Positions 30,905-58,259 of a stretch of 64,000 nt of DNA are shown here, in pieces. The DNA comes from Betaproteobacteria bacterium. Its GTDB lineage: Bacteria > Pseudomonadota > Gammaproteobacteria > Burkholderiales > SG8-41. The translations under genes were made by a program, and so were the position numbers. Below the pieces are notes generated by a model. The model saw only the letters and a program-made list of their open reading frames with translations, did not search any database and was not told where the DNA came from. The DNA lies in the NCBI GenBank assembly GCA_052389535.1, contig JBQTHU010000041.1, forward strand, positions 12,972 through 76,971, read 5' to 3'. Each line of letters starts with the position of its first letter. Positions within the stretch are counted from its first letter, which is position 1.

Positions 30905-33577
<2,673 letters not shown>

Positions 33578-33632
33578 CGCAGGTGCTCGCGGTGCAATGA
33601 GCGCCAACTTGCGGCAATAAGCGCCGGGCCGC

Positions 33633-35099: not shown

Positions 35100-36027
35100 T
35101 CACGCCGGGGCTGTCGTTCCACTCGCTCAGCTTGCGGAACAGCTCGGTATGCCCCTCGCCGTGTATCGGCCACCGGCGGTTCCAAAGATCGAAGCGCGGG
35201 CGCGGCCCGATGACGTCGTTGCGGGCGGCGGCGAGGCTGTCGATGGTGCCTACGTCCCGCCAGTATCCGGCTTCCTCGTAGGGCTTGATGCCGGGAACCT
35301 GGTTGTTCGTGAAGTCGTAGGCGAGAACGCGGCAGCAACCCGGGAGGCCCGGCATCACGTCCCGGCCGAAATCGACCGCCCCCCGGCGCTGCGCGGCTTG
35401 CAGCAGTCCGACCAGCACGTCCGGGTTGAAGAGGTAATTGCCCATGGAGGCCTGCGCCTGCCCGGGATCGTGCGGGGACGGCGTCGGACGAGCCGGTTTC
35501 TCCTGGAATTCCCGGATGCGCCCCTCTCTGTCGGTCACGACGACCCCGAATGAGGATGCGCCCTGAATCGGCACGGGGACGGCCGCAACCGTCACGTCGG
35601 CGTTGCGCGACGCGTGAAACTCCACCATCTGCCGCACATCCATCCGATACACATGGTCCGCTGCGAAAATCGCCACCACATCGGGGCGATGCCGGACGAT
35701 GAGATCGAGGTTCTTGTACACCGCGTCCGCGGTTCCGAGGAACCGGGCGCCATTGCCGTCCTCGCCGGGGAGGATGACCCTGATCGTGCTGCCCGGCCCC
35801 GCAGACCACCGCGCCCACGCCCTGCCGATGTGACGCACGAGCGCCTCGGGCTTGTACTGCCCGACGACGTAGATCGGCTCGATATCCGAGTTCACCAGAT
35901 TGCTCAGCACGAAATCGACAATGCGATAGCCGTTGACGAACGGCACTGCGGGTTTCGGGCTGTCGGCGGTGAGAGGATACAGACGCGTGCCTTCACCGCC
36001 AGCCAGGACGATCGCCAGAATTTTCAT
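35029..36027 (-). CDS. glgC: Glucose-1-phosphate adenylyltransferase catalytic domain only (C-terminal left-handed beta-helix domain missing)
   Basis: MKILAIVLAGGEGTRLYPLT ... FAADHVYRMD ... YWRDVGT match GlgC. Similarity stops after RRWPI, and the last ~45 codons run into the 3' end of glgA (71-nt convergent overlap). Confidence 0.8.
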   Translation of the reverse strand: MKILAIVLAGGEGTRLYPLTADSPKPAVPFVNGYRIVDFVLSNLVNSDIEPIYVVGQYKPEALVRHIGRAWARWSAGPGSTIRVILPGEDGNGARFLGTADAVYKNLDLIVRHRPDVVAIFAADHVYRMDVRQMVEFHASRNADVTVAAVPVPIQGASSFGVVVTDREGRIREFQEKPARPTPSPHDPGQAQASMGNYLFNPDVLVGLLQAAQRRGAVDFGRDVMPGLPGCCRVLAYDFTNNQVPGIKPYEEAGYWRDVGTIDSLAAARNDVIGPRPRFDLWNRRWPIHGEGHTELFRKLSEWNDSPGVINPDRVRRADGRARHTAGPAGSS

Positions 36028-36261
36028 GGAATCCCTCTGTCCGGAACTGTTGCGTTGGCGGAAGTCTCGCCCGCGAGGTGATGCTTGTTCTCCGAACAGC
36101 CAGAGCGGAACGCGGGGCGCGAGAGGACTATAGTTTCCGCAGGCGCGCCGCGCTATCGGTTTGCCTTGATCTTTTTGTGGCGAAGCCGCGGCGCGCTGTA
36201 GTCGCCGCACGACAGGCGCGCGATGCCAGCGGCACAACGCCGGCCGGGACCGGCCGGAAGG

Positions 36262-36891
36262 TCAATCTACGAGGCGATGCTTGATGGCGTAGTGCACCAG
36301 CTCGGCGTTGGTGCGCAGGCTCAGCTTGCGGAAGATGCGCGCGCGATAAGTGCTGATCGTGCTGGGACTCACGAACAGCTCCGAGGCGATCTGGTGGATC
36401 TGCTTGCCGGAAGCGAGCAGCCACATCACGCGGTACTCCCGGTCCGACAGCGTTTCGTGCAGCGGCTTCTGCGTGTCGCGCGACAGCTCGAATGCAAGCT
36501 TCTCGGCAAGCGAGCGGCTCACGTAGCGCCCGCCGTTGGTGACCTTGCGCAGCGCGGAGGTAAGCTCTTCGCCCACACATTCCTTGTTGATATAGCCCGC
36601 ACCGCCCGCCTTCAGCACCCGTGTCGCGTGCAGCTCCTCGGGGTACATGCTGAGAATCAGCACCGGACGCTGCGGAAACTCGCGCTTGAGTTCCTTCAGC
36701 AGGTCGAGACCGCTCCGCCCCGGCATCGAGTAATCGACCAGGGCCACGTCCCACTCGACTTTACGCGCGAGATCAAGCGTTTCCGTGCCGTTCTTCGCCT
36801 CACCGACCACTTCGATGCCGGAATCCGTCGCCAGTATCTGCCTCAATCCATGCCGAACCACCGGATGGTCGTCCGCGATCAGTACCTTCAC
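36262..36891 (-). CDS. NarL/FixJ-family response regulator (REC + LuxR HTH), paralog 2
   Basis: GTG start at 36891 (VKVLIADDHPVVRHG). About 70% identical by eye to the regulator at 29801..30430. The upstream part of ORF 36262..37491 is an out-of-frame overlap with the kinase gene. Confidence 0.93.
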   Translation of the reverse strand: MKVLIADDHPVVRHGLRQILATDSGIEVVGEAKNGTETLDLARKVEWDVALVDYSMPGRSGLDLLKELKREFPQRPVLILSMYPEELHATRVLKAGGAGYINKECVGEELTSALRKVTNGGRYVSRSLAEKLAFELSRDTQKPLHETLSDREYRVMWLLASGKQIHQIASELFVSPSTISTYRARIFRKLSLRTNAELVHYAIKHRLVD

Positions 36892-36932
36892 GATTCTCTC
36901 CCTGTTCTTTTGCCGCCTGCCGGAAAGCAGCG

Positions 36933-38150
36933 TCAGCCGCGCGCGGCATGCGCAACCGGTCGCGGACTGCCGAGCGGTATGCGTACCCTGACGGCCGTGC
37001 CCTTGCCGCGCTGGCCCTGTATCTCGATTCTTCCGTCGAAGGGCAATACCCGCTCCCGCATGCCCAGAAACCCGAGCGATTTGGAACTGTTGATCTTCGC
37101 CTCGCCGATGCCCTTGCCGTTGTCCTGCACCCGCAACCAGATCTCGCCCTCGTCCTCGCCCATGCAGACGTCCACGCGGGTGGCGTGGGCGTGGCGCGCG
37201 ACGTTGGTGAGCAGCTCCTGGAAGATACGGAACATGGCCGTGGAGCGCGCCTGATCCAGCGACGGGCCGTCGGCCGGAATCTGGACACTGCACCGGATGC
37301 CGGACCGGACCTGGAAATCGCGCGCCTGCCAGCCGATCGCGGCCGCGAGCCCGATCTCGTCCAGCACTTCCGGTCGCAGGCCGGAGGCGATTCTTCGCAC
37401 CGATCGGATCGTGCCGTCGATCAGCCGGAACATCGCCGTGGTCTTTTCCGCCAGCGCTTTCTGCTCGGGTTGCAGTCCGCTGGCGAGCCACGTCAGGTCC
37501 ATCTTGAGCCCGGTGAGCGCCTGGCCGAGCTCGTCGTGTATCTCGCGCGCGATGCGGATCTGCTCCTCCTCGCGCACCGACTGCAGCCGCGCCGCCAGCG
37601 CGCGCAGGTTTTCCTCGGACTCGCGCAGCCGTTCCTCCGTCACGCGCCGCTCCGCGATCTCCCGCGTGAGCGCAAGGTTCTTGTTGTAGAGATCGACGAA
37701 CACCGCGATCTTCGAGCGCAGCACCTCGGGGATCAGCGGCTTCACGATGTAATCGACCGCGCCGACCTCGTATCCGCGGAAGATCGAGGCAAGATCCTCG
37801 TACGCGGCGGTGAGAAAGATGATCGGCGTGTGCCGCGGCCCGGGCTGCTCCCGGATGCGGCGCGCGGTGGTGAACCCGTCCATGCCGGGCATGCGTGCGT
37901 CGAGCAGGATCACGGCGAACTCATCCTGCGCCACCTTCTTGAGCGCCTCCTCGCCCGAACTGGCAAGCACCAGCGTCTGGCCCGGCGCATCGAGCAGCTC
38001 GCGCAGGGCGAGGAGATTGCGCTGGTCGTCGTCGACAGCCAGAATCTTCGCCGCGCTCCCTGCCGACGTCACTTCGGACACCTCGCGTTCGACACGTTGT
38101 TGCATTCCTGCCCTGCCGCGTATTATCGGTGCAAGCGCTGTGCAAGCCAA
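36933..38150 (-). CDS. Soluble REC-input histidine kinase: REC - coiled coil - HisKA_3 - HATPase_c
   Basis: Receiver (ILAVDDDQ ... LLDARMPGMDG ... DYIVKP), H-box REIHDELGQ (NarX/DegS type) and an ATPase domain. The start may be the Met at 38105. Confidence 0.88.
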   Translation of the reverse strand: MACTALAPIIRGRAGMQQRVEREVSEVTSAGSAAKILAVDDDQRNLLALRELLDAPGQTLVLASSGEEALKKVAQDEFAVILLDARMPGMDGFTTARRIREQPGPRHTPIIFLTAAYEDLASIFRGYEVGAVDYIVKPLIPEVLRSKIAVFVDLYNKNLALTREIAERRVTEERLRESEENLRALAARLQSVREEEQIRIAREIHDELGQALTGLKMDLTWLASGLQPEQKALAEKTTAMFRLIDGTIRSVRRIASGLRPEVLDEIGLAAAIGWQARDFQVRSGIRCSVQIPADGPSLDQARSTAMFRIFQELLTNVARHAHATRVDVCMGEDEGEIWLRVQDNGKGIGEAKINSSKSLGFLGMRERVLPFDGRIEIQGQRGKGTAVRVRIPLGSPRPVAHAARG

Positions 38151-38565: not shown

Positions 38566-39594
38566 ATGCCCGGCACCCCGCTAATCCAAGGCCTGAAAAT
38601 ATTCTCCACCTGCCCGCCCTCCAACCGGATTCCGCAGGCGGAATACCTGCAGCGGGTACAGGAAATCGCACGATGGAGCGAGCAGGCCGGCTGCGAGGGC
38701 ATCCTGGTGTACACCGACAACGGCCTGCTCGACCCCTGGCTGGTATCGGAGGCAATCATCAATGCGACGCGCAAGCTCTCGCCGCTCGTCGCGATCCAGC
38801 CCGCTTACATGCATCCCTACAGCGCCGCCAAGATGGTCGCCACGCTCGCATACCTCCACGAGCGGCGACTGTATCTCAACATGGTGGCAGGCGGCTTCAG
38901 GAATGACCTGATTGCGCTCAATGACCCGACGCCCCACGATGAGCGCTACGACCGCCTGGTGGAGTACACCACGATCATCAAGGCGCTGCTGCGAGGCAGC
39001 GACGCGCTGACGTACGAGGGCCGGTACTACCGCGTGGCGAACCTCAAGCTGACGCCGCCGCTTGCGCCGGCCCTTATGCCGGGCGTCTTCGTGTCGGGTT
39101 CCTCGGACGCCGGAATGGCGGCGGCGCGCAAATTGTCCGCCACCGCCGTGCAGTACCCGCGACCGCCGTCCGAGTACGCGCCGGCGACCGGCAACACGAC
39201 AGGCAGCATGGGGATCCGCATCGGGATCATCGCGCGCGAGGAGGACGCTGAAGCATGGCACGTCGCGCGCACCCGGTTTCCGGAAGACCGCAAGGGACAG
39301 CTCACCCATCAGCTGGCGATGAAAGTGTCCGACTCGTCGTGGCACAAGCAGCTCTCCGAGCTGGGGGAGACGCCGGCCTCTTCCGAGAATCCGTACTGGC
39401 TGGTCCCGTTCCAGAACTACAAGACCTTCTGCCCGTACCTCGTCGGCGGTTATGACCGTGTCGCCGACGAAGTGTCCCGCTACGTGGAGGCCGGCTACCG
39501 CACTTTCATTCTCGACGTGCCGGCCGGCCCGGAGGAAATGCAGCACATAGGCGAGGTGTTCGAGCGCGCGGTCTGCGCGTTCGCGATCGGATGA
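38566..39594 (+). CDS. LLM-class (luciferase-like, SsuD-like) flavin-dependent monooxygenase
   Basis: 342 aa with a TIM-barrel LLM pattern resembling SsuD along its whole length. GAAGGA ribosome-binding site upstream. Confidence 0.88.
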   Translation: MPGTPLIQGLKIFSTCPPSNRIPQAEYLQRVQEIARWSEQAGCEGILVYTDNGLLDPWLVSEAIINATRKLSPLVAIQPAYMHPYSAAKMVATLAYLHERRLYLNMVAGGFRNDLIALNDPTPHDERYDRLVEYTTIIKALLRGSDALTYEGRYYRVANLKLTPPLAPALMPGVFVSGSSDAGMAAARKLSATAVQYPRPPSEYAPATGNTTGSMGIRIGIIAREEDAEAWHVARTRFPEDRKGQLTHQLAMKVSDSSWHKQLSELGETPASSENPYWLVPFQNYKTFCPYLVGGYDRVADEVSRYVEAGYRTFILDVPAGPEEMQHIGEVFERAVCAFAIG

Positions 39595-41198
39595 ACATGC
39601 TACTGCAGCACGGTGTTACGGCGCAGGCGGAAGCGCGCCCGGAAGCCATTGCGCTCGTCGGCAGGAGCGAGCGGATCACCTACGGCACGCTCGAACGCGA
39701 CAGCAACCGGCTGGCGCGGCTGCTGATCGAGTCCGGCTGCGGCAGAGGCGAACGCGTCGCGCTGCTGATGCCGAAGGTTCCGCAGGCGATCATCGCCATG
39801 CTCGCCACGCTCAAGGCCGGGGCGATATATGTCCCGCTCGACCCTGCCGGACCGCCGAGCAGGCTGGCGCGCATGCTCGAGATCAGCGACTGCTGCTGCA
39901 TCCTGGCCTGCGGACCGGTCGAGGACATGCTGCGCGAGACGCTGGCTGCGGCGCGGCTTGCCCGGCAGCCGGTCGTCGGCTGGCTGCAGGGCCGGGTGCC
40001 GGAAGTGGCTGGCGTAGCCGCCTTCGGTGAAGCCGCGGCCGCGGGATTTCCGGACACTCTGCCCCCCTGCGACAGCAACGATGGCGACCTTGCGCACATC
40101 CTCTTCACTTCGGGTTCCACCGGGTTGCCCAAGGGCGTGATGATCGCGCATCGCAGCGTCGTGCATTTCATCGACTGGGCGCGGGCATACTTCGGCACCG
40201 CGCCCGGAGAGCGCATCTCGCAGCACCCGCCCTTTCACTTCGATCTGTCCACCTTCGACATCTACGGCACGCTATGGGCGGGCGCCGAGCTGCATCTGGT
40301 CCCGCCCGAATTGAACCTGCTGCCCCACAAGCTCGCGCGGTTCATCGCCGAAGCAGAGCTTACGCAGTGGTTTTCCGTGCCTTCGGTGCTGAACCTCATG
40401 GCGAAATACGACGTGGTGCCATCGGGATCGCTGCCGAGTCTTGAACGGGTGATGTGGTGCGGCGAGGCCATGCCCACGCCTACGCTCATTTACCTGATGC
40501 AGCGCCTGCCGCACGCGCGCTTCACCAACCTTTACGGCCCTACGGAAGCCACGATTGCAAGCAGCTACTACACCGTGCCCGGCTGTCCGCGCGACGAGCG
40601 CGTAGCGATTCCGATCGGCACGCCGTGCGATGGCGAAGCGCTGCTGGTGCTCGACGAGGCGCTGCGGCCGGTGGCCGCGGGTGATATCGGGGATCTCTAC
40701 ATCAGCGGAGTGGGGTTGAGCCCCGGTTATTGGCGTGACCCGGACAAGACGCGCGCCGCATTTTTGCCCCGCCCCGGCGGCGGATATCCTGACGAGCGCA
40801 TCTATCGAACCGGCGATCTCGCCCGCGTGGGCAGCGACGGGCTCGTGTATTTCCTGGGCCGGGCCGATTCCCAGATCAAGAGCCGCGGCTACCGCATCGA
40901 GCTGGGCGAAATCGAGGCCGCCGCGAACGCCACGGGATGGCTGCGCGAGTGCGCCGTGGTGGCATTCGCGAGCAACGGTTTCGAGGGGCACGCCATCTGC
41001 TGCGCCTATACGCCGCTGCCCGATGTCGAAGTGACGCCCGCCCGTCTGCGCGAGCGGCTGCGCTCGCTGCTGCCCGCCTACATGCTGCCCACCCACTGGC
41101 GCGCTTTCGAATTTCTCCCCAAGAACCCCAACGGCAAGATCGACCGGCCGGCATTGCGGGCGGCGTTCCAGCAACCGTCGGAAGTGCTGCATGTTTGA
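39591..41198 (+). CDS. Stand-alone amino acid adenylation enzyme (NRPS A-domain / DltA-like)
   Basis: 535 aa. Core motifs FTSGSTGLPKGV (A3), FHFDLS (A4), NLYGPTEAT (A5), YRTGDLAR (A7), GRADSQIKSRGYRIELGEIE (A8), PKNPNGKIDR (A10). ATGA overlap with the LLM gene. Confidence 0.9.
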   Translation: MNMLLQHGVTAQAEARPEAIALVGRSERITYGTLERDSNRLARLLIESGCGRGERVALLMPKVPQAIIAMLATLKAGAIYVPLDPAGPPSRLARMLEISDCCCILACGPVEDMLRETLAAARLARQPVVGWLQGRVPEVAGVAAFGEAAAAGFPDTLPPCDSNDGDLAHILFTSGSTGLPKGVMIAHRSVVHFIDWARAYFGTAPGERISQHPPFHFDLSTFDIYGTLWAGAELHLVPPELNLLPHKLARFIAEAELTQWFSVPSVLNLMAKYDVVPSGSLPSLERVMWCGEAMPTPTLIYLMQRLPHARFTNLYGPTEATIASSYYTVPGCPRDERVAIPIGTPCDGEALLVLDEALRPVAAGDIGDLYISGVGLSPGYWRDPDKTRAAFLPRPGGGYPDERIYRTGDLARVGSDGLVYFLGRADSQIKSRGYRIELGEIEAAANATGWLRECAVVAFASNGFEGHAICCAYTPLPDVEVTPARLRERLRSLLPAYMLPTHWRAFEFLPKNPNGKIDRPALRAAFQQPSEVLHV

Positions 41199-42141
41199 GT
41201 GGTGGCGTCCGCGGAGTGCGACTGTTCTGCTGGTCGCCGAAGAGGCGGCGGGGGTACAGACGCTGCGCGCCATACTGAAGGGCAGACACCGGCTTGTCGG
41301 AGTGGTGACTTCGGAAAGCGAGGACCTGCGGCGGGGGGCTACCGTGCGCGGCGTCGCCGAGAGCAGCGGCTGCCGCATCTGGCCGGCAGAGTCGGTCAGG
41401 AGTCCCGGCTTTGTCGATGAAATCCGCGCGGCGGAGGTGGACATACTGCTCAACGTGCATTCGCTGCGCATGATCCATCCCGCAGTGCTCGCAGCCCCGC
41501 TCATCGGCAGTTTCAATCTGCACCCGGGGCCGCTGCCCGAATATTCGGGACTCAACGCCCCCAGCTGGGCGATCTATAACGGAGAGCCGCGTCACGCCGT
41601 CACGGTCCACTGGATGACCGCAGAAATCGACAGCGGCCCCGTGGCTTTTCGCGAGGAACTGATCACCGTGGAGGACGAGACGGGCCTGACCCTCAGCGCG
41701 AAATGCGTTCGGGCGGGCGTACCGCTGCTGCTCAGAGTGCTTGACGCGGCCAGCGAGGATCCCGCATCGATTCCGCGCCTGCCGCAGGATTTCTCGCGCC
41801 GCCGCCGCTACGGCCGGGAAGTCCCGCAGAACGGGCGTTTGCGCTGGTCGCAATCCGCAGAGCGGATCGTACGGTTTGTACGGGCATGCGACTACTCGCC
41901 GCTGCCTTCTCCATGGGGATACCCGTACACCCGGCTGAAGGGCGAGCCCTGCGCCGTGCTCAAAGCCGCGCGAACCCGGCGCCGCTGCGCGGTGCCCGCG
42001 GGCACCATCGGAGAAATCAGGGACGCGACCGCGCTCGTGGCTGCGTCTGACGAGTGGGTGGCGATCAGCCAACTCAATGTTGCAGGCCGTGCGCTGCGTG
42101 CGGCCGACGTATTGCACACAGGAGCACGCCTTGAAGATTGA
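41191..42141 (+). CDS. Formyltransferase (Fmt/ArnA-N-like, with Fmt-type C-terminal domain)
   Basis: 316 aa. SFNLHPGPLPEYSG and EIDSGPV match the N-x-H ... D catalytic signature of formyltransferases. 8-nt overlap with the adenylation gene. Confidence 0.85.
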   Translation: MFEWWRPRSATVLLVAEEAAGVQTLRAILKGRHRLVGVVTSESEDLRRGATVRGVAESSGCRIWPAESVRSPGFVDEIRAAEVDILLNVHSLRMIHPAVLAAPLIGSFNLHPGPLPEYSGLNAPSWAIYNGEPRHAVTVHWMTAEIDSGPVAFREELITVEDETGLTLSAKCVRAGVPLLLRVLDAASEDPASIPRLPQDFSRRRRYGREVPQNGRLRWSQSAERIVRFVRACDYSPLPSPWGYPYTRLKGEPCAVLKAARTRRRCAVPAGTIGEIRDATALVAASDEWVAISQLNVAGRALRAADVLHTGARLED

Positions 42142-42406
42142 TGCCGATCTCCCCGATCTCGCGCTCTACGACGAGATCATCACTCTTTTCCTGGAGCGCC
42201 TTAACGTGACCGTCCCCTCGCTCGAGGCGGATCTGCTTGCAAGCGGGGTGCTCGACTCCCTGGCGCTGGTGGAACTGCTGATGCAGATCGAGCTGCGCTA
42301 CGGGGTGCAGATCTCACTGGAGAGGCTCGACTTCGAGGACTTCCGGTCCGTGGCAGCGATTGCCGCGTTCATCGCACGGGAGCGGTTGTGCTGCCAGCCT
42401 CTATAG
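42131..42406 (+). CDS. Acyl/peptidyl carrier protein (DltC-like)
   Basis: TTG start at 42131, preceded by GGAG. Phosphopantetheine-site context GVLDSLALVELL. About 91 aa. Confidence 0.75.
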   Translation: MKIDADLPDLALYDEIITLFLERLNVTVPSLEADLLASGVLDSLALVELLMQIELRYGVQISLERLDFEDFRSVAAIAAFIARERLCCQPL

Positions 42407-42479
42407 CACAGCCGGCAAGCCGGATCCGGACATTTCGCGCCGAGAGCATCCCCGATATCCATCGCGCGCGCGGGGGCGA

Positions 42480-43295
42480 ATGGTGGATGCGCTTTTCCGA
42501 CCAATGAACCTTTGTGCAATCGCCATGACGATTCTCCCTTCGATCCTGAAACGACATACCGCGCCGCTCGGCGGGAGCGAGACTGCGCTCGAGATCGCGA
42601 GCTATCCCGAGCGGACTTCCCTGATCGAAAGCTGGATCCGCAAACTTTCGCACCGCGCCGCGCCCGTACGGATCCTGGAAGCGGGGTGCGGACAGAAGTG
42701 GCCGCTGAAGCTGGACGGCATACGCTACACGTTGACCGGCCTGGACGTGGACGGGAAAGCGCTGGAGATAAGAAAGAATGTGACCCGCGACCTCGATGAA
42801 GCGATCCACGGCGACCTGCGCTACGCCGATCTCGGTGGACGGCAGTTCGACGTGATATACAGCTCATACGTTCTGGAGCATGTCAAGGAGGCGCAGGTCG
42901 TGCTCCACAACTTTTCGCGGTGGCTGCGCCCCGGGGGCCTCCTGGTCCTCCTCATACCCGATCCCCATTCGGTACGCGGATTCATCACGCGTATCACGCC
43001 TCACTGGTTCCACGTCCTTTACTATCGGCACGTCCTCAGACTGCCCAACGCCGGGAAGCCGGGCTTCGGCCCGTACGTCACGTACTACGCGCCCGTTGTA
43101 TCGCAGTCCGGAATCAAGGAATTCTGCGATCGGCATGGCCTGCGGATCGTTGCCCGGCGCGGCAGCATATCGTACCCCGGACGGGGAACCGCCGCGGTCC
43201 TCAGCACAGCGGCGGCGCGCCTTGTTGCCTGGCTTTCGCTGGGTCGGCTGAAGAACGATCACGCCGACCTGCTCTACATCATCGAGAAAATATGA
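42480..43295 (+). CDS. Class I SAM-dependent methyltransferase
   Basis: Motif I ILEAGCGQ, DVIYSSYVLEHV, LRPGGLLVLLIPD. The start is uncertain (the ORF opens at 42360). Confidence 0.8.
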   Translation: MVDALFRPMNLCAIAMTILPSILKRHTAPLGGSETALEIASYPERTSLIESWIRKLSHRAAPVRILEAGCGQKWPLKLDGIRYTLTGLDVDGKALEIRKNVTRDLDEAIHGDLRYADLGGRQFDVIYSSYVLEHVKEAQVVLHNFSRWLRPGGLLVLLIPDPHSVRGFITRITPHWFHVLYYRHVLRLPNAGKPGFGPYVTYYAPVVSQSGIKEFCDRHGLRIVARRGSISYPGRGTAAVLSTAAARLVAWLSLGRLKNDHADLLYIIEKI

Positions 43296-43331: not shown

Positions 43332-44492
43332 ATGAAAATCTGCTTTATCGGATTTGACAATCTCCCGATGCTGGCTCCGGAGTTCGAGCAGTACCATCTC
43401 GGCGGTGAATCGGTTCAGCAGACGCTGCTCGCCCGGGCGCTGGCGCGGCGCGGCCATGATGTCAGCATGATCGTCACCGATTATGGCCAGCCGGACCCGG
43501 CCATGTGGCACGGCATACGGGTATTCAAAGCCTACCGGCGCGATGCCGGGATGAAGATGATCCGGTTCTTTCATCCGCGCTGGACTGGCATGTGGTCCGC
43601 GCTGAAACGCGCCGATGCCGATATCTACTACACCAGTTGCGCCGACATGCTGCCCGGGATGCTCGCCCTCTTCTGTCGCCGCTTCGACAGGCGTTTCGTA
43701 TTCCGGGCCGCCAGCGATCCGGACTGCGACCGTTCCCGCCTGCATCTGCTCGTGCGCTATGCGCGCGACCGCCGGCTCTATGCATACGGATTGCGCCGCG
43801 CCCACGCCATACTGGTGCAGAGCAATGCGCAGGCCGACCTGCTGGCGCGGAGCTACGGCCTCACATCGCGTGTTGCGGGAATGCTCGTGGACAAGCCGCT
43901 GCCGAACGCCGCCGATGCGGACATCGACGTGCTGTGGGTCGGCAACATCAAGCGCGTGAAACGGCCCGACCGGCTGCTCGAGCTTGCTGCGAAGCTGCCG
44001 CATCTGAAATTTCACGTGGTGGGCGGAAAGACCGCCTATGAAGAAAAGCTTTTCGACGACTTCACCCCTGCGGTCGCCGCCTTGTCCAACGTGGTTTTTC
44101 ACGGCCGGCTGTCGTACCGCAAAACTGCCAGCCTGTATGACAGAACGCGGCTGCTCATCAATACCTCGGACGTGGAGGGCTTTCCCAACGTTTACCTGCA
44201 AGCCTGGGTTCGCGGCGTGCCGGTGGTGACGCTGCTCGACCCGGACGGGATCATCGAGAGAAAAGGACTGGGCGCTGCCGCGGGTTCGTTCGCAGAGATG
44301 GCGGACGCGATCGGGACCCTGCTGGAAAATCCGTCCCGCTGGCAGTCCGCGAGCGAGCGTTGCCGCGCGTTCATGGCTCGGGAATACGCTGAAGACAAGG
44401 TGCTGAGCATCTACCTCCGCACATTCGAGGACGTCATGAGAAATGACCATCTCGGCCGCGGCCGATTTGCAGCGAGCGAATACCATGTCTGA
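43332..44492 (+). CDS. Glycosyltransferase (GT-B fold, GT4-like)
   Basis: 386 aa. MKICFIGFDNL N-terminus and C-terminal EGFPNVYLQAW (E-x7-E region). Confidence 0.85.
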   Translation: MKICFIGFDNLPMLAPEFEQYHLGGESVQQTLLARALARRGHDVSMIVTDYGQPDPAMWHGIRVFKAYRRDAGMKMIRFFHPRWTGMWSALKRADADIYYTSCADMLPGMLALFCRRFDRRFVFRAASDPDCDRSRLHLLVRYARDRRLYAYGLRRAHAILVQSNAQADLLARSYGLTSRVAGMLVDKPLPNAADADIDVLWVGNIKRVKRPDRLLELAAKLPHLKFHVVGGKTAYEEKLFDDFTPAVAALSNVVFHGRLSYRKTASLYDRTRLLINTSDVEGFPNVYLQAWVRGVPVVTLLDPDGIIERKGLGAAAGSFAEMADAIGTLLENPSRWQSASERCRAFMAREYAEDKVLSIYLRTFEDVMRNDHLGRGRFAASEYHV

Positions 44493-45525
44493 GACACCTT
44501 TTATCATCACCATAGACACCGAAGGCGACAACCTCTGGGCCCGCCCCCGCGAGATCACGACCCGGAATGCAGCCTTTCTCCCGCGCTTTCAGGCGCTGTG
44601 CGAGAGCTTCCGCTACAAGCCGGTTTACCTGGTGAACTACGAGATGGCCATGTCGGACGAGTTCGTCGAGTTCGGGCGCGATGTCATCGCCCGCGGCACG
44701 GGAGAGATCGGCATGCATCTCCACGCCTGGAACTCCCCGCCCCTGTACGCGTTGACCGACGACGATTTTCGCCATCAACCTTATCTCATCGAGTACCCGG
44801 CGGCGGTGATGAAGGAGAAGATCAAGACGCTCACCCATATTCTCGAGGACCGCTTCATGCAGCGTATCGTCAGTCACCGGGCAGGCCGCTGGGGGTTCGA
44901 CGGCCGCTATGCCGCAATGCTGCTCGACACGGGATACCGCATCGATTGTTCCGTGACACCCGGGCTGGACTGGAGCCGTTGCGCCGGAGCGCCCGGCGGC
45001 AAGGGCGGCACGGACTACACGCGTTTCCCGCATCGACCGTACTTTTTCTCGCCTTCCGATATCTCGACGCCTTGCAGTGGCGCACTCCTGGAAGTCCCCA
45101 TGACGCTCCATATCGGGCGGCTGTACCAGAGACTCCCATGGACCTATCACACGCCGCTCGTACGCTGGGGCGCCAAAAAGCTGTCGCCGCCGCCGCGTTG
45201 GCTGTGCCCCACTCCCGTTCACGAGAGGCACAATTTTCAGGCCATGCTGCAGCTCGCGCGCCGTAAACGCTCCGACGGGGCGAGCCATATGGAATTCATG
45301 CTGCACTCGTCGGAACTCATGCCGGGCGGCAGTCCCGTATACCGCAACGCGGCGGAAATCGACCGTTTGTACGCGTATCTTGAGATCCTTTTCGAGGAAC
45401 TCTCGGACTGGTGTCATGGTGCGACCCTTCAGGAATTCGAAGCGCAGCTTCAGAATTCCCTGAGGACGCGCACGCAGAACGGCGCGGCGGGGACGCGTCT
45501 CAACGGGGCGCCAGCACCGGCCTGA
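44485..45525 (+). CDS. Polysaccharide deacetylase-like protein (carbohydrate esterase 4 superfamily, WalW-type)
   Basis: The IITIDTEGD N-terminus and GMHLHAW resemble the deacetylase-like proteins found in LPS/EPS loci. Assigned from memory of the family. 8-nt overlap with the preceding GT gene. Confidence 0.6.
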   Translation: MSETPFIITIDTEGDNLWARPREITTRNAAFLPRFQALCESFRYKPVYLVNYEMAMSDEFVEFGRDVIARGTGEIGMHLHAWNSPPLYALTDDDFRHQPYLIEYPAAVMKEKIKTLTHILEDRFMQRIVSHRAGRWGFDGRYAAMLLDTGYRIDCSVTPGLDWSRCAGAPGGKGGTDYTRFPHRPYFFSPSDISTPCSGALLEVPMTLHIGRLYQRLPWTYHTPLVRWGAKKLSPPPRWLCPTPVHERHNFQAMLQLARRKRSDGASHMEFMLHSSELMPGGSPVYRNAAEIDRLYAYLEILFEELSDWCHGATLQEFEAQLQNSLRTRTQNGAAGTRLNGAPAPA

Positions 45526-45569: not shown

Positions 45570-46364
45570 ATGATCTGCTATAGGGGTCGGGGCGCAGTTT
45601 ACGGCGAGCTCTGGTACGACGAGGATGCAGAACTCCCCCGTGCGGCCGTCGATATCATTTTGTACCGGCAGAGAAAGGCTCCGGTTCCCGGGGCGCACAG
45701 CACCCCGCTGCTTTCGCTGGTGATCGACCTCACCGTCCCGGCACCCGCAATAGTGGAGCAGTTCGGAAAAGACTGCCGCTACAAGATCAGGCGCGCTGAC
45801 ACGAAGGACGGGTTGCGCATGGAGTTCATCAGTCAGCCGGGCCCCAGACTGGACGAGTTCTGCGACTTCTACGATGCTTTCGCCGGGCAGAAGTCGGTGG
45901 GACCGGCAAACCGTCAGTGGCTCGAAGCTGCCTGCAGCGCCGGCCGTCTGCTGCTCACATCGGTTTTACGCGGCAGCGAAGTGATCGTCTGGCATGCTTA
46001 TCTCGTAACCGGCACGAGCGCCTGGCTGCAGTACTCCGGCTCCTGCTATAGAGACAAGGCGAACGAGTATCGAGCGCTGGTAGGTCGTGCCAACCGCTGG
46101 CTGCACTGGCAGGAGATGCTGCGGTTCAAGGAAATCGGCATGACCCGCTACGACTGGGGCGGATTGTTCGAGAATGAATCCTCCCCGGAGCACGCGGGCA
46201 TCAACCGCTTCAAGAAGGAATTCGGCGGCCGGCCGGTGCGCAGCTATGATTGCGTTCTGCCGGTCACGCTGAGAGGCAGATTATGGCTGCCCCTGCGCGG
46301 TGCCTGGCGGAGCAGGACCTCGCTGCGCAATTTGTTCACGCGGACCCTGTCCCAGGAGCATTGA
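45570..46364 (+). CDS. FemAB-related / GNAT-fold acyltransferase (type associated with PEP-CTERM EPS loci)
   Basis: Start taken at MICYRG. FGKDCRYKIRRA, AWLQYSG and GINRFKKEFGG resemble FemX/FemAB-family proteins. Confidence 0.65.
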   Translation: MICYRGRGAVYGELWYDEDAELPRAAVDIILYRQRKAPVPGAHSTPLLSLVIDLTVPAPAIVEQFGKDCRYKIRRADTKDGLRMEFISQPGPRLDEFCDFYDAFAGQKSVGPANRQWLEAACSAGRLLLTSVLRGSEVIVWHAYLVTGTSAWLQYSGSCYRDKANEYRALVGRANRWLHWQEMLRFKEIGMTRYDWGGLFENESSPEHAGINRFKKEFGGRPVRSYDCVLPVTLRGRLWLPLRGAWRSRTSLRNLFTRTLSQEH

Positions 46365-47263
46365 TGGTCTCAAAAGCCGCTCGTGCAGCATCTGCAGGCC
46401 TTCTATGCCTGGCCATTGTCCTGATCTCTTCCAACGTGGCGGGATTGATCACATCGCTGCGCAACGATGAGATCTTCTCCGAGAAGAACGTGCTTTTCCC
46501 GGATGACATAACGCTCACCGCAAGGCAGGTTCACGACGTAATCGCTGCGCCTGCGGCCGACAGAAAGTCTTACGCCATGGCGGTAAGCCACGCCATAAAC
46601 AAAGGCGTTGCCCACTATCTGTGGCTGGATGAAGGCATAGAGAAGTACAACCTGCGCGTCCCGTTCCATGAAAACTACATTCTATTCGTCGCAAGCTATC
46701 TGATACCGCAATACTATCGAAAGTACGAGTTCAGGGACTACCGTAGAGCCATAGAGCGGGGCGTAGGATTGTGTTCCCAGCATGCGATAATCGTCGCGGA
46801 GATCCTGCGCAAAAAAGGCCTGGCTTCCGGGATCGTGAGCATGCCCACTCACGCGGACATGCCCGGCCACGTGGTCGCAACGGCCCGCGTCGACGATGCG
46901 CGGAATGAATGGTGGATACTGGATGCGGATTACGGTGTCGTCGTGCCCCACGGCATCGAGGCCGTCCGGGCGCAACCGAGCATCGTCGCTCCCTACTACC
47001 GGCGTCGCGGCTACGACGAACAAACCGTCGCCACGCTTGTTTCGAACTACGCCAAGGACGCGCGGGTCTTTCCCGATGGAGCGAAGAACTATGGCGTCAT
47101 GACATACTGGGCCGAGGCCATCGCGTATGCGCTGATCTGGATCATTCCCGGCTTCCTTGCGATCCCCTTCGTCCTGACGCTGCGCTCCGGAAAACAGCCG
47201 CTGCGGCATCGGAAATACAGGTGCTGTGCGGCTGTCATCCCGGCCGTGATTCTGATCGATTGA
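46364..47263 (+). CDS. Membrane-anchored transglutaminase-like (papain-fold Cys-His-Asp) protein
   Basis: N- and C-terminal TM helices. Putative triad contexts GVGLCSQHA, PGHVVATA and WWILDADYG. TGATG overlap with the FemAB-like gene. Noticeably lower GC. Confidence 0.55.
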   Translation: MVSKAARAASAGLLCLAIVLISSNVAGLITSLRNDEIFSEKNVLFPDDITLTARQVHDVIAAPAADRKSYAMAVSHAINKGVAHYLWLDEGIEKYNLRVPFHENYILFVASYLIPQYYRKYEFRDYRRAIERGVGLCSQHAIIVAEILRKKGLASGIVSMPTHADMPGHVVATARVDDARNEWWILDADYGVVVPHGIEAVRAQPSIVAPYYRRRGYDEQTVATLVSNYAKDARVFPDGAKNYGVMTYWAEAIAYALIWIIPGFLAIPFVLTLRSGKQPLRHRKYRCCAAVIPAVILID

Positions 47264-50075: not shown

Positions 50076-50930
50076 TCACGCCGTCTTGCGCAGGACGCCC
50101 GCGGGTCCGGCCGTTTTTCCGGACGGCCGGCTCTCTTCGAGGAACCAGATGCTGATCATCAGAAAGATCAGCGACGAGAGCCATTCCATGGCTTCGTTGG
50201 CCGTATCGTAGAACTGATTCGTTTCGCCCGCAGGCAGAAGCGACAGGACCAGGCGGTACGTCAGCCAGTTCACCGCGAACAGCAAGCCGATGGCGAGCGG
50301 CGGAAGCGGAATATGCAGCCGGCTCACGATCAACCCCGCGGGTCGCACGCTGTACGCGACGATGGGCAACAACACGCCATAGCAGAGCCAGAACAGCTTG
50401 TAGAGAAAATTCACGGTCAAGAGTTTTTCAAGGCCCCTCTTCTCACTACCGTCTGATCTCCGCGCATTGAGCAGCTCGATGTTGTGCAGGTTGAACTCTT
50501 CCTGCACGTTGACCGCAGCGATGGAGTCCGGGGTCTTGAACCCGAACACCCGCTGCCCCCAGCTGATCTCTTCTCCGCAGCCGACAAGGAAAACAAATGA
50601 CAGCAGCAGGAGAAACCAGTTGCGCGACCTGAAAAAAGCTGCCAGAAAACATAGGGACGCGGCGAAAAAGGCGGCTGCGGTCAGGTTCTCGAACAGGCCA
50701 TCCTCCTCGCCAATCGCCGCGACCGTGCCTGAGTCCAGCACGAAGTAGGTGCCATACGAGAGCAGGACCGCGCCGACTATGATCGATACGTGACCTCCGG
50801 CAGCCCGGATACTGTCCAGGCCGATGCGTGCCAGTCGGGCCAGACGCAAGGCAGGCGTTCGCCGTTTGACGCCGAACGCGTCCGTTTGCACCGCCGGTGG
50901 CTCCCCCGCCGAGGTTTGTTGGGCTCGCAT
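50076..50930 (-). CDS. Multi-pass membrane protein of unknown function
   Basis: 284 aa with about 6-7 hydrophobic helices. No family recognised. Lower GC than its neighbours. Confidence 0.6.
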   Translation of the reverse strand: MRAQQTSAGEPPAVQTDAFGVKRRTPALRLARLARIGLDSIRAAGGHVSIIVGAVLLSYGTYFVLDSGTVAAIGEEDGLFENLTAAAFFAASLCFLAAFFRSRNWFLLLLSFVFLVGCGEEISWGQRVFGFKTPDSIAAVNVQEEFNLHNIELLNARRSDGSEKRGLEKLLTVNFLYKLFWLCYGVLLPIVAYSVRPAGLIVSRLHIPLPPLAIGLLFAVNWLTYRLVLSLLPAGETNQFYDTANEAMEWLSSLIFLMISIWFLEESRPSGKTAGPAGVLRKTA

Positions 50931-54147: not shown

Positions 54148-54250
54148 GGTGTGATTGTCCCGTCGCGCGCGGATTCGCGTAGGAGCGCGACATGCTCCAT
54201 ATGGACCGCGCGCGCTCGTGCACGCCATGTGTCGCGGCCGTGAACATCCC

Positions 54251-58249: not shown

Positions 58250-58259
58250 GCAGGCCCCG

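What the first reader, a model, noticed from the sequence alone, without database searches (positions are those of the whole stretch)
38566..42406. Translationally coupled LLM monooxygenase / DltA-like adenylation enzyme / Fmt-like formyltransferase / DltC-like carrier cassette at the head of an EPS operon
Four genes with overlapping stop and start codons open the plus-strand EPS operon (ATGA at 39591-39594, 8-nt overlap at 41191-41198, 11-nt overlap at 42131-42141).

- The first is an SsuD-like flavin monooxygenase.
- The second is a free-standing 535-aa adenylation enzyme with all NRPS/DltA core motifs. Its A4 motif FDLS keeps the Asp that normally contacts a substrate alpha-amino group.
- The third is a formyltransferase with an intact N-x-H...D signature (SFNLHPGPLPEYSG, EIDSGPV) and an Fmt-like C-terminal domain.
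- The fourth is a 91-aa carrier protein (GVLDSLALVELL).

No condensation domain, thioesterase, DltB (MBOAT) or DltD partner is visible.

Inference: an amino acid is loaded on the carrier, N-formylated and/or oxygenated while tethered, and then transferred to the polysaccharide or its lipid-linked repeat unit. ACP plus AMP-ligase side-chain cassettes exist in O-antigen loci; from memory, the tetronate genes of the V. cholerae O1 rfb region are one example. I do not recognise this four-gene combination in an exosortase-style EPS locus as a characterised pathway.
Basis: partly seen in the sequence, partly recalled or inferred. Interest (0 to 1): 0.7.

Follow-up and report, generated by a model that had tools for sequence, protein, structure and literature searches.

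The report
Free-standing formylating aminoacyl-carrier cassette in EPS locus
Four overlapping genes at the head of a polysaccharide operon encode a small, free-standing assembly line (amino-acid loader, carrier protein, flavin oxygenase, formyltransferase) that probably puts a modified small amino acid on a surface sugar; it is uncharacterised yet turns out to be common in soil bacteria of many phyla.

Summary
Coordinates, overlaps, motifs and domain assignments all hold. The adenylating enzyme is of the amino-acid type, not a fatty-acyl ligase.

1. The conserved unit elsewhere is LLM oxygenase + adenylating enzyme + carrier, often followed by an Eis-like GNAT. The Fmt-like gene is an add-on in about one fifth of LLM-anchored loci.
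2. In this window the GNAT has been deleted, leaving a 30-nt relic at 42475-42504. A methyltransferase sits in its place. The four genes still evolve under purifying selection (dN/dS 0.10-0.17 against a relative with the same deletion).
3. The specificity code DLFF[L/I/M]CLIAK is near-invariant across at least ten phylum labels. It is closest to AlmE (glycine) and DltA (D-alanine), so the substrate is probably a small amino acid.
4. Relatives place the cassette next to a C-A-T-TE NRPS module, or replace A/carrier/LLM with a FemAB-like gene fused by overlap to the Fmt-like gene. Both patterns fit formylation of an aminoacyl amine.

No curated family model and no paper I could find describes the cassette. 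The chemistry of the LLM step and the final acceptor remain inferred. Verdict: a new variant of carrier-dependent envelope aminoacylation, of moderate to high interest.

The parts
38566..39594 (+). LLM-class flavin-dependent oxygenase, 342 aa. It belongs to its own highly conserved subfamily and is only distantly SsuD/MsuD-like.
   Evidence: PF00296 at 2.8e-34. The best NCBIfam hits are far below their cut-offs. The best PDB hit is SsuD/MsuD at about 1e-24. More than 100 database clusters are 68-92% identical to it. dN/dS is 0.095 against L085.
39591..41198 (+). Free-standing amino-acid adenylating enzyme, 535 aa, with specificity code DLFFMCLIAK.
   Evidence: TIGR01733 scores 386 bits, above the 317 cut-off. 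The code is conserved in 46 of 48 orthologues. In the pocket region the closest solved enzymes are PltF, 4oxi (AlmE) and DltA.
41191..42141 (+). Fmt/ArnA-type two-subdomain N10-formyl-THF formyltransferase, 316 aa.
   Evidence: PF00551 plus PF02911. The Asn-His-Asp triad is invariant. The AF2 model has pLDDT 91.7 and matches Fmt and ArnA-FT over its full length at TM 0.83-0.85.
42131..42406 (+). Carrier protein, 91 aa, with the phosphopantetheine-attachment Ser in GVLDSL. Start is TTG, preceded by AGGAG.
   Evidence: PF00550 at 8.7e-10. NCBIfam similarity to AmcB, DltC and AsbD is below cut-off. The start codon was read. The same 91-aa gene is called in L085 and L087.
42475..42504 (+). 3' relic of the deleted Eis-like GNAT gene (..GEWWMRF..), lying in the 118-nt carrier-methyltransferase spacer.
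   Evidence: tblastn with the GNAT of L001 matches only its last 10 residues. The DNA alignment with the end of the L001 GNAT confirms it.
42525..43295 (+). Class-I SAM methyltransferase, 256 aa, occupying the GNAT position.
   Evidence: PF13489 and PF08241. The start was fixed by alignment with L085. A methyltransferase also follows the carrier gene in seven Acidobacteriota loci (L019, L030, L034, L043, L053, L061, L069; the three I checked against one search are Terriglobales or unclassified Acidobacteriota), at 28-34% identity.
43332..44492 (+). GT4 glycosyltransferase.
   Evidence: PF13692, PF00534 and PF13579. It is conserved with the two genes downstream in related loci.
44485..45525 (+). 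346-aa protein of an unnamed large family, probably a CE4-like deacetylase. It could expose a sugar amine.
   Evidence: No Pfam or NCBIfam hit. It has 5738 homologues, two of which NCBI names 'deacetylase'. The AF2 model is weak, pLDDT 64. The top Foldseek hits are PdaC, ArnD and a CE4 xylan esterase, E 1e-4 to 1.5e-2.
45570..46364 (+). FemAB-like GNAT-fold protein, 264 aa. Candidate aminoacyl transferase.
   Evidence: PF13480 at 5e-6 and PF02388 at 3e-5. The ATG start with an AAGGAAG ribosome-binding site was read. The orthologue is 264 aa in L085.
46250..47263 (+). Transglutaminase-like protein; true start uncertain. Alternative candidate for acyl transfer from the carrier.
   Evidence: PF04473 at 3.7e-5. 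Among the fetched loci it matched only L085 and L086, the methyltransferase-bearing, GNAT-less relatives.

Best explanation
The four genes form a free-standing, NRPS-like tailoring line that supplies a modified aminoacyl group to the exopolysaccharide made by the rest of the locus.

Step 1 (strongly inferred). The 535-aa adenylating enzyme activates one particular small neutral alpha-amino acid. Glycine is the best guess, then D- or L-alanine, then proline. It loads the residue as a thioester on the phosphopantetheine arm of the 91-aa carrier.

Step 2 (inferred). The LLM enzyme oxygenates the tethered residue, using FMNH2 supplied by a flavin reductase encoded elsewhere. The most likely site is C-alpha, next to the nitrogen.

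Step 3 (inferred). The Fmt/ArnA-type enzyme transfers formyl from N10-formyl-tetrahydrofolate to the residue's amino group. This happens either on the carrier, as in the LgrA initiation module, or straight after transfer.

Step 4 (inferred). The group is passed to a sugar amine exposed by the CE4-like deacetylase encoded three genes downstream. In most relatives an Eis-like GNAT next to the carrier gene is the obvious transferase. In this window that gene has been deleted, so the FemAB-like or the transglutaminase-like protein of the same operon would have to do the transfer. The methyltransferase that replaced the GNAT may add a methyl group.
For: - Domain calls are firm, and TIGR01733 scores above its cut-off.
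- Stop/start overlaps join the four genes.
- LLM, A and carrier are linked to the Fmt-like gene in 33 of 49 well-flanked genome loci. These loci carry at least ten phylum labels.
- The specificity code DLFF[L/I/M]CLIAK is conserved in 46 of 48 orthologues whatever the context. This points to one substrate.
- Of the nine pocket positions, 6 are identical to 4oxi/AlmE (glycine), 5 to DltA (D-Ala) and 3 to PltF (Pro). All pocket residues are bulky and hydrophobic.
- PF01613 flavin reductase genes lie beside the cassette in L001, L087, L003 (fused to another domain), L029, L051, L055, L056, L060 and L160. This supports a two-component oxygenase.
- Precedent for the LLM step: flavin monooxygenase domains in NRPS modules hydroxylate C-alpha of glycyl-S-PCP in myxothiazol, melithiazol and solanimycin (PMC10204066).
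- Acidobacteriota relatives (the three I checked against one search are Terriglobales or unclassified Acidobacteriota) put the cassette next to a C-A-T-TE module with an intact HHxxxDG motif. This is the logic of a formylated starter unit.
- Gemmatimonadales loci lack A, carrier and LLM. They have instead a FemAB-like gene overlapping the Fmt-like gene, beside a PglF-like dehydratase or DegT. So the Fmt-like enzyme again travels with an enzyme that handles an activated amino acid.
- The polysaccharide context is clear: GT4s, Wzx, Wzy, EpsG, UDP-sugar dehydrogenases, a TviC-like epimerase and the CE4-like protein.
- dN/dS is 0.10-0.17 for all four genes against L085, which also lacks the GNAT.
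Against: - No biochemical datum exists for any member.
- By sequence the Fmt-like protein is nearer ArnA-FT (1e-22) and Fmt (4e-18) than the LgrA F domain (4e-4). The fold cannot discriminate between them.
- 9 of 49 well-flanked Fmt-anchored loci have no LLM, A or carrier nearby.
- LLM-A-carrier usually occurs without the Fmt-like gene. The formyl step is therefore not integral to the core chemistry.
- The LLM did not match TIGR04020, which from memory is the natural-product LLM-domain model, at E<=1e-3. Its reaction is inferred from family chemistry only.
- The window has no flavin reductase, no PPTase, no aminotransferase and no GNAT. The last transfer step therefore has no firm candidate.
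- The substrate prediction rests on 9-10 pocket residues. Over the whole pocket segment PltF (proline) scores best.
Confidence: 0.45

Rival explanations
1. Two independent arms. The Fmt-like enzyme is an ArnA-type sugar N-formyltransferase acting on a nucleotide- or lipid-linked amino sugar, possibly paired with the CE4/ArnD-like protein as a deformylase. LLM, A and carrier separately add an oxidised aminoacyl group. The gene adjacency reflects a shared glycan target, not a shared substrate.
For: The best sequence matches are the ArnA formyltransferase domain (1e-22) and NF005414/PRK08125. The full-length fold equals ArnA-FT. Fmt-like genes sit next to a PglF-like dehydratase or DegT without A or carrier in L007, L012, L017, L037, L040 and L054. 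LLM-A-carrier mostly occurs without the Fmt-like gene. ArnD is among the top structural hits of the downstream 346-aa protein.
Against: In the window and most Acidobacteriota and Betaproteobacteria loci the Fmt-like gene lies between A and the carrier with overlapping codons. The window has no aminotransferase homologue (tblastn with DegT) and no 4,6-dehydratase-type match above the curated cut-off among the ORFs I scanned. In A-less loci the Fmt-like gene overlaps a FemAB-like aminoacyl-transferase gene, which would compete for the same sugar amine unless the two act in sequence. The CE4-like protein also occurs in loci without the Fmt-like gene, such as L107, L138 and L150.
Confidence: 0.22
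2. Hydroxamate line. The LLM N-hydroxylates the tethered amino acid and the Fmt-like enzyme (or, in relatives, the GNAT) N-acylates it. The product is an N-formyl-N-hydroxy-aminoacyl (hadacidin-like) metal-binding decoration. This parallels the monooxygenase plus formyl/acetyltransferase pairs of hydroxamate siderophores.
For: The oxygenase recurs with an N-acyl-type transferase: the GNAT in 7 of 28 and the Fmt-like gene in 6 of 28 LLM-anchored loci, and both in L001, L003 and L087. From general knowledge, Fmt-like formyltransferases pair with N-hydroxylases in coelichelin, rhodochelin and pyoverdine pathways.
Against: No LLM-class enzyme is known to me as an N-hydroxylase. Known LLM reactions are C-hydroxylation next to a heteroatom, Baeyer-Villiger oxidation and desulfonation. 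L089 has LLM-A-carrier with no acyltransferase at all. Nothing in the sequence speaks for N- over C-oxygenation.
Confidence: 0.1
3. Formyl thioester. The Fmt-like enzyme formylates a pantetheine thiol (CoA or the holo-carrier), as LctF, HypX and 10-formyl-THF dehydrogenase do. Formyl is then a C1 acyl unit rather than an N-cap.
For: LctF is 32% identical to Met-tRNA formyltransferase and makes formyl-CoA, which is passed to an ACP (PMC11730586). HypX and the FDH hydrolase domain are among the structural and sequence neighbours. The Fmt-like and carrier genes overlap.
Against: The single carrier is also the only partner for an amino-acid-type adenylating enzyme. There is no KS, AT or aldehyde dehydrogenase to use a formyl thioester. 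FemAB-like/Fmt-like pairs occur with no carrier at all.
Confidence: 0.07
4. The cassette makes a small diffusible N-formyl peptide or amino-acid metabolite and is only physically embedded in the EPS locus. Alternatively, in this window it is a decaying remnant after loss of the GNAT and the flavin reductase.
For: An NRPS C-A-T-TE module sits beside the cassette in Acidobacteriota relatives (Terriglobales or unclassified). The GNAT is deleted and no flavin reductase is in the window.
Against: There is no C or TE in the window. The cassette opens an operon of GT4, deacetylase-like and FemAB-like genes that is syntenic in relatives. All ORFs are intact and dN/dS is 0.10-0.17 against a relative with the same deletion.
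Confidence: 0.1

Closest known systems
AlmEFG of Vibrio cholerae (glycine addition to lipid A) and DltABCD (D-alanylation of teichoic acids)
   Same: A free-standing DltA-type adenylating enzyme loads a small amino acid on a small free-standing carrier for decoration of an envelope glycoconjugate (PMC12930378). Of the nine pocket residues, 6 are identical to 4oxi and 5 to DltA. That 4oxi is AlmE is from memory.
   Different: The window has no AlmG-type or DltB (MBOAT)/DltD transferase. The DltA and DltC equivalog models score far below their cut-offs. Neither known system has an oxygenase or a formyltransferase. The target here is a Wzx/Wzy exopolysaccharide.
LgrA initiation module of linear gramicidin synthetase (F-A-PCP)
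   Same: A formyltransferase with the Asn-His-Asp triad works with an amino-acid A domain and a carrier. LgrA is the top PDB hit of the A enzyme. In Acidobacteriota relatives (Terriglobales or unclassified) a C-A-T-TE module follows the same logic.
   Different: Here the three activities are separate proteins. The Fmt-like protein keeps the C-terminal subdomain and is much closer to ArnA and Fmt than to the LgrA F domain (1e-22 against 4e-4). There is no condensation domain in the window, and an LLM oxygenase is added.
ArnA formyltransferase domain and sugar N-formyltransferases (WbkC, FdtF, VioF)
   Same: Same fold and catalytic triad, and a polysaccharide-locus context.
   Different: The window has no aminotransferase or dehydratase partner. 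The gene is wedged between the adenylating enzyme and the carrier gene. NF005414 scores 103 bits against a cut-off of 316 and PRK08125 scores 102 against 777.
Flavin monooxygenase domains of NRPS modules MtaG, MelG and SolF (alpha-hydroxylation of glycyl-S-PCP)
   Same: A flavin oxygenase acts on a carrier-tethered glycyl unit (PMC10204066). The predicted substrate here is likewise a small, glycine-like residue.
   Different: Those are embedded domains acting on N-acylated glycine within an assembly line. The window's LLM is free-standing and did not match TIGR04020, which from memory is the natural-product LLM-domain model, at E<=1e-3. That the MtaG-type domains are LLM-class is from memory.
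Exosortase A/PEP-CTERM-associated acyl-CoA ligase + carrier set (TIGR03098 and partners) and the V. cholerae O1 RfbKLMNO tetronate genes
   Same: An AMP-ligase and a carrier protein sit inside polysaccharide loci to make a non-sugar substituent. The window locus has EpsG (TIGR03029, above cut-off) and XrtA-type glycosyltransferase and amidotransferase relatives.
   Different: TIGR03098 scores 247 bits against a cut-off of 592. No PLP decarboxylase or hydrolase partners are present. The Rfb comparison could not be tested with these tools and rests on memory only.

Membership tests
NRPS-type amino acid adenylation enzymes (TIGR01733) | Score above the curated cut-off; core motifs A3, A4 (FDxS with Asp235), A5, A7, A8 and A10 Lys | tested here: met
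   386 bits against a cut-off of 317.4. FTSGSTGLPKG, FDLS, NLYGPTE, YRTGD, GRADSQIKSRGYRIE and NGKIDR are all in the translation.
   The best fatty-acyl-CoA ligase model (NF004837) scores 221 bits against a cut-off of 476. It ranks below ten amino-acid/NRPS-type models.
DltABCD D-alanylation system | DltA equivalog score | tested here: not met
   TIGR01734 scores 278.8 against a cut-off of 559.85. NF003417 scores 288.5 against 476.
DltABCD D-alanylation system | DltB (MBOAT) and DltD encoded alongside | tested here: not met
   No MBOAT or DltD hit among the window ORFs I scanned.
AlmEFG glycine-lipid A system | AlmE-like specificity pocket | tested here: inconclusive
   6 of 9 pocket residues are identical to 4oxi. 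The overall pocket segment has E 2e-17, weaker than PltF at 1e-22.
AlmEFG glycine-lipid A system | AlmG-type (lipid A late acyltransferase-like) transferase in the operon | tested here: not met
   No such family among the Pfam or NCBIfam hits of the operon proteins.
Formyltransferase superfamily (Fmt/ArnA-FT/FDH type) | N-terminal Rossmann-like domain with Asn-His-Asp triad plus C-terminal OB-like subdomain | tested here: met
   PF00551 plus PF02911 above cut-offs. N109, H111 and D147 are invariant. TM 0.83-0.85 to Fmt and ArnA-FT.
Methionyl-tRNA formyltransferase (TIGR00460) / ArnA (PRK08125) | Equivalog score | tested here: not met
   87.3 bits against a cut-off of 201.5, and 101.9 against 777.
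LgrA-type formylating initiation module | F, A and PCP fused in one polypeptide and followed by a condensation domain | tested here: not met
   They are three separate ORFs and the window has no C domain. A C-A-T-TE gene is adjacent only in Acidobacteriota relatives (Terriglobales or unclassified).
LgrA-type formylating initiation module | Formylation of aminoacyl-S-carrier | not testable with these tools
   Needs an in vitro assay with 10-formyl-THF and intact-protein MS.
Alkanesulfonate monooxygenase SsuD | Equivalog score | tested here: not met
   TIGR03565 scores 123 bits against a cut-off of 518. NF001939 scores 126 against 510.
Two-component LLM flavin monooxygenases | LLM TIM-barrel domain plus a separate flavin reductase | tested here: inconclusive
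   PF00296 is met. A PF01613 reductase lies beside the cassette in at least nine related loci, but none is in the window.
Natural-product LLM domain family TIGR04020 (model identity from memory) | Match to the model | tested here: not met
   It is not among the 13 NCBIfam families with E<=1e-3.
Exosortase A-associated acyl-CoA ligase (TIGR03098) | Equivalog score | tested here: not met
   247.2 bits against a cut-off of 592.35.
Carrier proteins (PF00550) | Four-helix PP-binding domain with Ser in the (D/x)S(L/x) motif | tested here: met
   39.2 bits against a cut-off of 20.8. The motif is GVLDSL. A G-x-x-D-S-x motif is found in 28 of 40 orthologues by a strict regular expression.
V. cholerae O1 RfbKLMNO tetronate cassette | Homology of components | not tested
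   No V. cholerae sequences were reachable with the tools. The comparison is from memory only.

The most novel reading that the evidence does not exclude
LLM-A-carrier, with Fmt-like and/or GNAT add-ons, is a previously unrecognised and very widespread pathway. It shows up in hundreds of soil-metagenome loci and at least ten phylum labels. It would install a new kind of glycan substituent derived from one small amino acid. Candidates are an N-formyl-alpha-hydroxyglycyl group or an N-formyl-N-hydroxy (hydroxamate, metal-binding) group. The LLM would then perform a reaction not yet described for a free-standing LLM on an aminoacyl-S-carrier.
Probability: 0.2. Interest if true: 0.8.

Novelty: new variant of a known kind. 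Interest (0 to 1): 0.6.

Why it matters
Carrier-protein-dependent aminoacylation of the cell envelope is known from only a few systems, such as Dlt and Alm. Both matter for antimicrobial-peptide resistance.

This cassette would extend that logic to exopolysaccharides and add on-line tailoring (oxygenation, formylation, methylation) done by separate small proteins. The invariant specificity code and the 65-90% identity of the LLM across phyla imply one conserved, still unknown building block on the surface glycans of many soil bacteria.

The system is small and soluble. Each step predicts a diagnostic mass shift on a 10-kDa carrier. Cultured strains carry it (Pseudonocardia sp. H11422, Pseudonocardia sp. 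CNS-004, Gracilimonas tropica DSM 19535). The question is therefore directly testable.

Tried and rejected
- **Fatty-acyl ligase reading of the A enzyme:** rejected.
- **Membership in Dlt, SsuD, Fmt, ArnA or TIGR03098:** all equivalog scores are far below their cut-offs.
- **Literature:** six full-text searches for the gene combination found nothing on the cassette. Some of them, and a seventh on AlmEFG, gave precedents only.
- **Missing partners in the window:** tblastn for the GNAT, a flavin reductase, a PPTase and DegT found only the 30-nt GNAT relic.
- **Are the FemAB-like proteins of the window and of L007, and the Eis-like GNAT, the same family?** No detectable BLASTP similarity.
- **AF2 model of the 346-aa downstream protein:** low confidence (pLDDT 64). 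Foldseek gives only weak CE4 matches, so 'deacetylase' stays tentative.
- **Fold search of the Fmt-like model:** it could not separate Fmt, ArnA and FDH as the nearest neighbour.
- **Simple sigma-70 scan:** no + strand promoter upstream of 38566.
- **A-domain code of the neighbouring NRPS module in Acidobacteriota relatives (Terriglobales or unclassified):** read only partly (D S.. V ... E V W) and not interpretable.
- **Gene caller:** my GC3-based caller missed some genes, so context strings were cross-checked with tblastn.

Full report
**1. The observation**

The + strand carries four ORFs at 38566-39594, 39591-41198, 41191-42141 and 42131-42406.
- The stop/start overlaps are exactly as described: ATGA, 8 nt and 11 nt.
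- The 11-nt overlap assumes a TTG start for the carrier. AGGAG lies 6 nt upstream of it. Gene callers chose the same 91-aa product in relatives.
- GC3 of 0.75-0.85 marks all four as coding.

Pfam and NCBIfam confirm the four assignments:
- an LLM-class oxygenase (PF00296);
- an amino-acid adenylation enzyme (TIGR01733, 386 bits against a cut-off of 317);
- a two-subdomain formyltransferase (PF00551 plus PF02911);
- a PP-binding carrier.

All quoted motifs are present. The formyltransferase triad N109/H111/D147 is invariant in 13 homologues.

**2. Surroundings**

The cassette follows a 415-nt gap. That gap is divergent from a response-regulator/histidine-kinase gene.

The cassette opens a nine-gene operon:

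| Coordinates | Product |
|---|---|
| 42525-43295 | methyltransferase |
| 43332-44492 | GT4 glycosyltransferase |
| 44485-45525 | 346-aa protein with no family hit |
| 45570-46364 | FemAB-like protein |
| 46250-47263 | transglutaminase-like protein |

Convergent minus-strand genes, plus a short + strand pair at 57170-59591 (an SDR epimerase/dehydratase-type ORF and the second UDP-sugar dehydrogenase), complete the locus. They encode GT4s, two UDP-sugar dehydrogenases, a TviC-like epimerase, a heparinase II/III-like protein, Wzx, Wzy, an Asn-synthase-type amidotransferase and EpsG (TIGR03029, above cut-off). So this is a Wzx/Wzy exopolysaccharide locus with uronic acids, of the EpsG/XrtA-associated style.

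None of the ORFs I scanned in the window is a condensation domain, thioesterase, MBOAT or DltD. There is also no aminotransferase homologue, flavin reductase or PPTase.

**3. Relatives**

*Fmt-like gene as anchor.* The Fmt-like protein has more than 2000 database relatives.
- A genome scan found 193 species-level loci, of which 80 were kept.
- Their record titles name Betaproteobacteria, Acidobacteriota, Actinomycetota, Gemmatimonadota, Planctomycetota, Verrucomicrobiota, Nitrospira, Chloroflexia, Trueperaceae, Binatus, 'Heliobacteriaceae' and Gracilimonas.
- Of 49 loci with at least 5 kb on both sides, 33 have LLM, A and carrier within 5 kb, and 9 have none.

*LLM as anchor.* The picture differs.
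- The LLM family is very conserved. The 120 best clusters are 68-92% identical.
- Among 28 loci with enough flank, A is present in 24, the carrier in 20, an Eis-like GNAT (PF13527, about 375 aa) in 7 and the Fmt-like gene in 6.
- The core is therefore LLM-A-carrier, commonly followed by the GNAT. The Fmt-like gene is an accessory.
- L089 shows the bare trio followed by Wzy, Wzx and GT2.
- L088 has a PPTase gene just upstream.

**4. Context classes**

- Betaproteobacteria syntenic with the window: LLM-A-Fmt-carrier-GNAT-GT4-346aa-FemAB-like, then a flavin reductase.
- Actinomycetes: DegT, a PglC-like transferase, an NTP-transferase fused to a flavin reductase, LLM-A-carrier-GNAT-Fmt, a deacetylase, a kinase, Wzx and Wzy.
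- Blastocatellia: the cassette plus SxtJ-like, two carbamoyltransferases and GDSL proteins.
- Other Acidobacteriota (Terriglobales and unclassified): a C-A-T-TE NRPS module with an intact HHxxxDG motif, a sulfotransferase, then LLM-A-Fmt-carrier-methyltransferase.
- Gemmatimonadales: no LLM, A or carrier. Instead a FemAB-like gene overlaps the Fmt-like gene, beside a PglF-like dehydratase or DegT.

**5. What happened in the window**

The GNAT is missing.
- Only its last ten codons survive at 42475-42504, in the carrier-methyltransferase spacer.
- L085 and L086 (86% identical) have the methyltransferase and no relic.
- Another close relative has neither gene.
That spot holds a flavin reductase in the GNAT-bearing relatives.
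- dN/dS between the window and L085 is 0.10-0.17 for all eight shared genes. The cassette has therefore stayed under purifying selection without the GNAT.

**6. Substrate**

I placed the Stachelhaus positions by motif. The window's code is DLFFMCLIAK. In 46 of 48 orthologues from all context classes it is DL[F/Y/other]F[L/I/M/V]CLIAK. This argues for a single substrate everywhere.

Pocket residues read off the HMMER alignments to solved enzymes:

| Enzyme | Substrate | Code (9 positions) | Identical to window |
|---|---|---|---|
| 4oxi (AlmE, from memory) | glycine | DLHLFCLIA | 6/9 |
| DltA | D-alanine | DLMTMCTVA | 5/9 |
| PltF | L-proline | DLLYLALVC | 3/9 |

- PltF nevertheless has the best E-value over the whole pocket segment, 1.3e-22.
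- That 4oxi is V. cholerae AlmE is from my memory. The AlmEFG function is described in PMC12930378.
- The pocket is lined by Leu, Phe, Phe, Met/Leu, Cys, Leu, Ile and Ala. That points to a small neutral residue.
- My ranking is glycine, then alanine, then proline. This is inference.

**7. The tailoring enzymes**

*LLM.* It is only distantly like SsuD/MsuD. It did not match TIGR04020, which from memory is the natural-product LLM-domain model. PF01613 reductase genes next to the cassette in at least nine relatives support a two-component FMNH2 oxygenase. LLM chemistry typically hydroxylates a carbon next to a heteroatom. Flavin monooxygenase domains of NRPS modules hydroxylate C-alpha of glycyl-S-PCP (PMC10204066). 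I therefore favour C-alpha oxygenation of the tethered residue, with low certainty.

*Fmt-like protein.* It models confidently (pLDDT 91.7). It superposes over its full length on Fmt and ArnA-FT at TM 0.83-0.85. By sequence it is nearer ArnA-FT and Fmt than the LgrA F domain. Its acceptor cannot be read from the sequence.
- Two contexts favour the alpha-amine of an activated or just-transferred amino acid: the NRPS neighbours, and the FemAB-like/Fmt-like pairs.
- ArnA-like similarity, and the loci without A or carrier, keep a sugar-amine acceptor alive.
- LctF (formyl-CoA, PMC11730586), HypX and FDH keep a pantetheine-thiol acceptor possible.

**8. Acceptor and transfer**

The 346-aa protein downstream belongs to a large unnamed family.
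- It has 5738 relatives, two of which NCBI names 'deacetylase'.
- Its weak AF2 model finds CE4 deacetylases first: PdaC, ArnD and a CE4 xylan esterase, with WbmS much lower at E 0.1.
- A de-N-acetylated HexN(A) in the repeat unit is thus a reasonable acceptor. This is tentative.
- In relatives the Eis-like GNAT is the likely transferase. GNAT-fold enzymes can use acyl-carrier donors (general knowledge).
- In the window the FemAB-like or transglutaminase-like protein must substitute, or transfer works differently.

**9. Comparison with known systems, and novelty**

- Functionally the nearest systems are Dlt and Alm (aminoacyl-carrier decoration of envelope glycoconjugates) and the LgrA initiation module (formylation of an aminoacyl-carrier).
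- Membership in each fails on defining features: equivalog scores, missing DltB/DltD/AlmG, and unfused proteins without a C domain.
- No curated NCBIfam model and no paper found in seven full-text searches describes the combination.
- I therefore rate it a new variant of a known kind. It is widespread, with an unknown product.

**10. Confidence**

| Claim | Confidence |
|---|---|
| Genes and domains real | ~0.97 |
| An alpha-amino acid is loaded on the carrier | ~0.85 |
| LLM acts on the tethered residue | ~0.6 |
| Formyl goes to that residue's amine | ~0.55 |
| Destination is the EPS | ~0.65 |
| Whole scheme | ~0.45 |

Noticed in passing
window 42407-42524 (relic at 42475-42504): The carrier-methyltransferase spacer holds the last ~10 codons (GEWWMRF) of an Eis-like GNAT gene that is intact in relatives L001, L005 and L087. 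This is a gene replacement by a methyltransferase caught with its scar.
   Followed up: yes
window 44485-45525 (+): A 346-aa protein with no Pfam or NCBIfam hit has 5738 relatives at about 65-70% identity. NCBI calls two of them 'deacetylase'. A weak AF2 model finds the CE4 enzymes PdaC and ArnD first. This is a large unnamed family common in EPS loci.
   Followed up: partly
In GNAT-bearing relatives that spot holds a flavin reductase. Its ORF overlaps the FemAB-like gene by about 115 nt, so the true start is unclear.
   Followed up: partly
L007:8839-10957, L012:8874-10942, L017:8626-10942: In Gemmatimonadales loci a FemAB-like gene (about 370 aa) overlaps, or in L017 directly abuts, the Fmt-like gene. 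The pair sits next to a PglF-like dehydratase or DegT, with no A, carrier or LLM. This may be a tRNA-dependent counterpart of the cassette.
   Followed up: partly
L019:1777-12023 and the similar L034, L043, L061: In Acidobacteriota loci (L019 and L043 carry unclassified Acidobacteriota titles; L061 is Terriglobales) the cassette follows a C-A-T-TE NRPS gene and a sulfotransferase. It precedes a methyltransferase and a large NHL-repeat protein. Blastocatellia versions instead carry SxtJ-like, two carbamoyltransferases and GDSL proteins.
   Followed up: partly
L089:10001-13064; L108, L110, L127, L130, L131: LLM-A-carrier occurs without any Fmt-like or GNAT gene (L089, followed by Wzy, Wzx and GT2). 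One recurrent class has two carrier genes and a divergent carbamoyltransferase.
   Followed up: no
window 30905-38150: A MASE1/PAS histidine kinase, GlgA, GlgC (-), a GerE-type response regulator (-) and a receiver-HisKA_3 kinase (-) lie upstream of the cassette. The same order is found in L001, L085 and L087. The glycogen genes and the two-component pair thus travel with the EPS operon in this lineage.
   Followed up: partly
window 48567-49880 (-) and 58077-59591 (+); 53065-54270 (-): Two UDP-sugar 6-dehydrogenase paralogues and a TviC-like UDP-GlcNAcA 4-epimerase relative, with an Asn-synthase-type amidotransferase at 59649-61577 (-). Together they suggest (amidated) HexNAc-uronic acids in the polymer.
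   Followed up: no
window 50076-50930 (-) and 18833-20887 (+): ORFs with a coding-like GC3 profile and no hit in the libraries tried: Pfam and NCBIfam for the first, NCBIfam only for the second.
   Followed up: no
window 11003-16201 (-): A 1732-aa signalling protein with about eight PAS domains, a GAF domain, GGDEF and EAL. A second GGDEF-EAL protein lies at 67-1503. The window is rich in c-di-GMP signalling genes next to the EPS locus.
   Followed up: no
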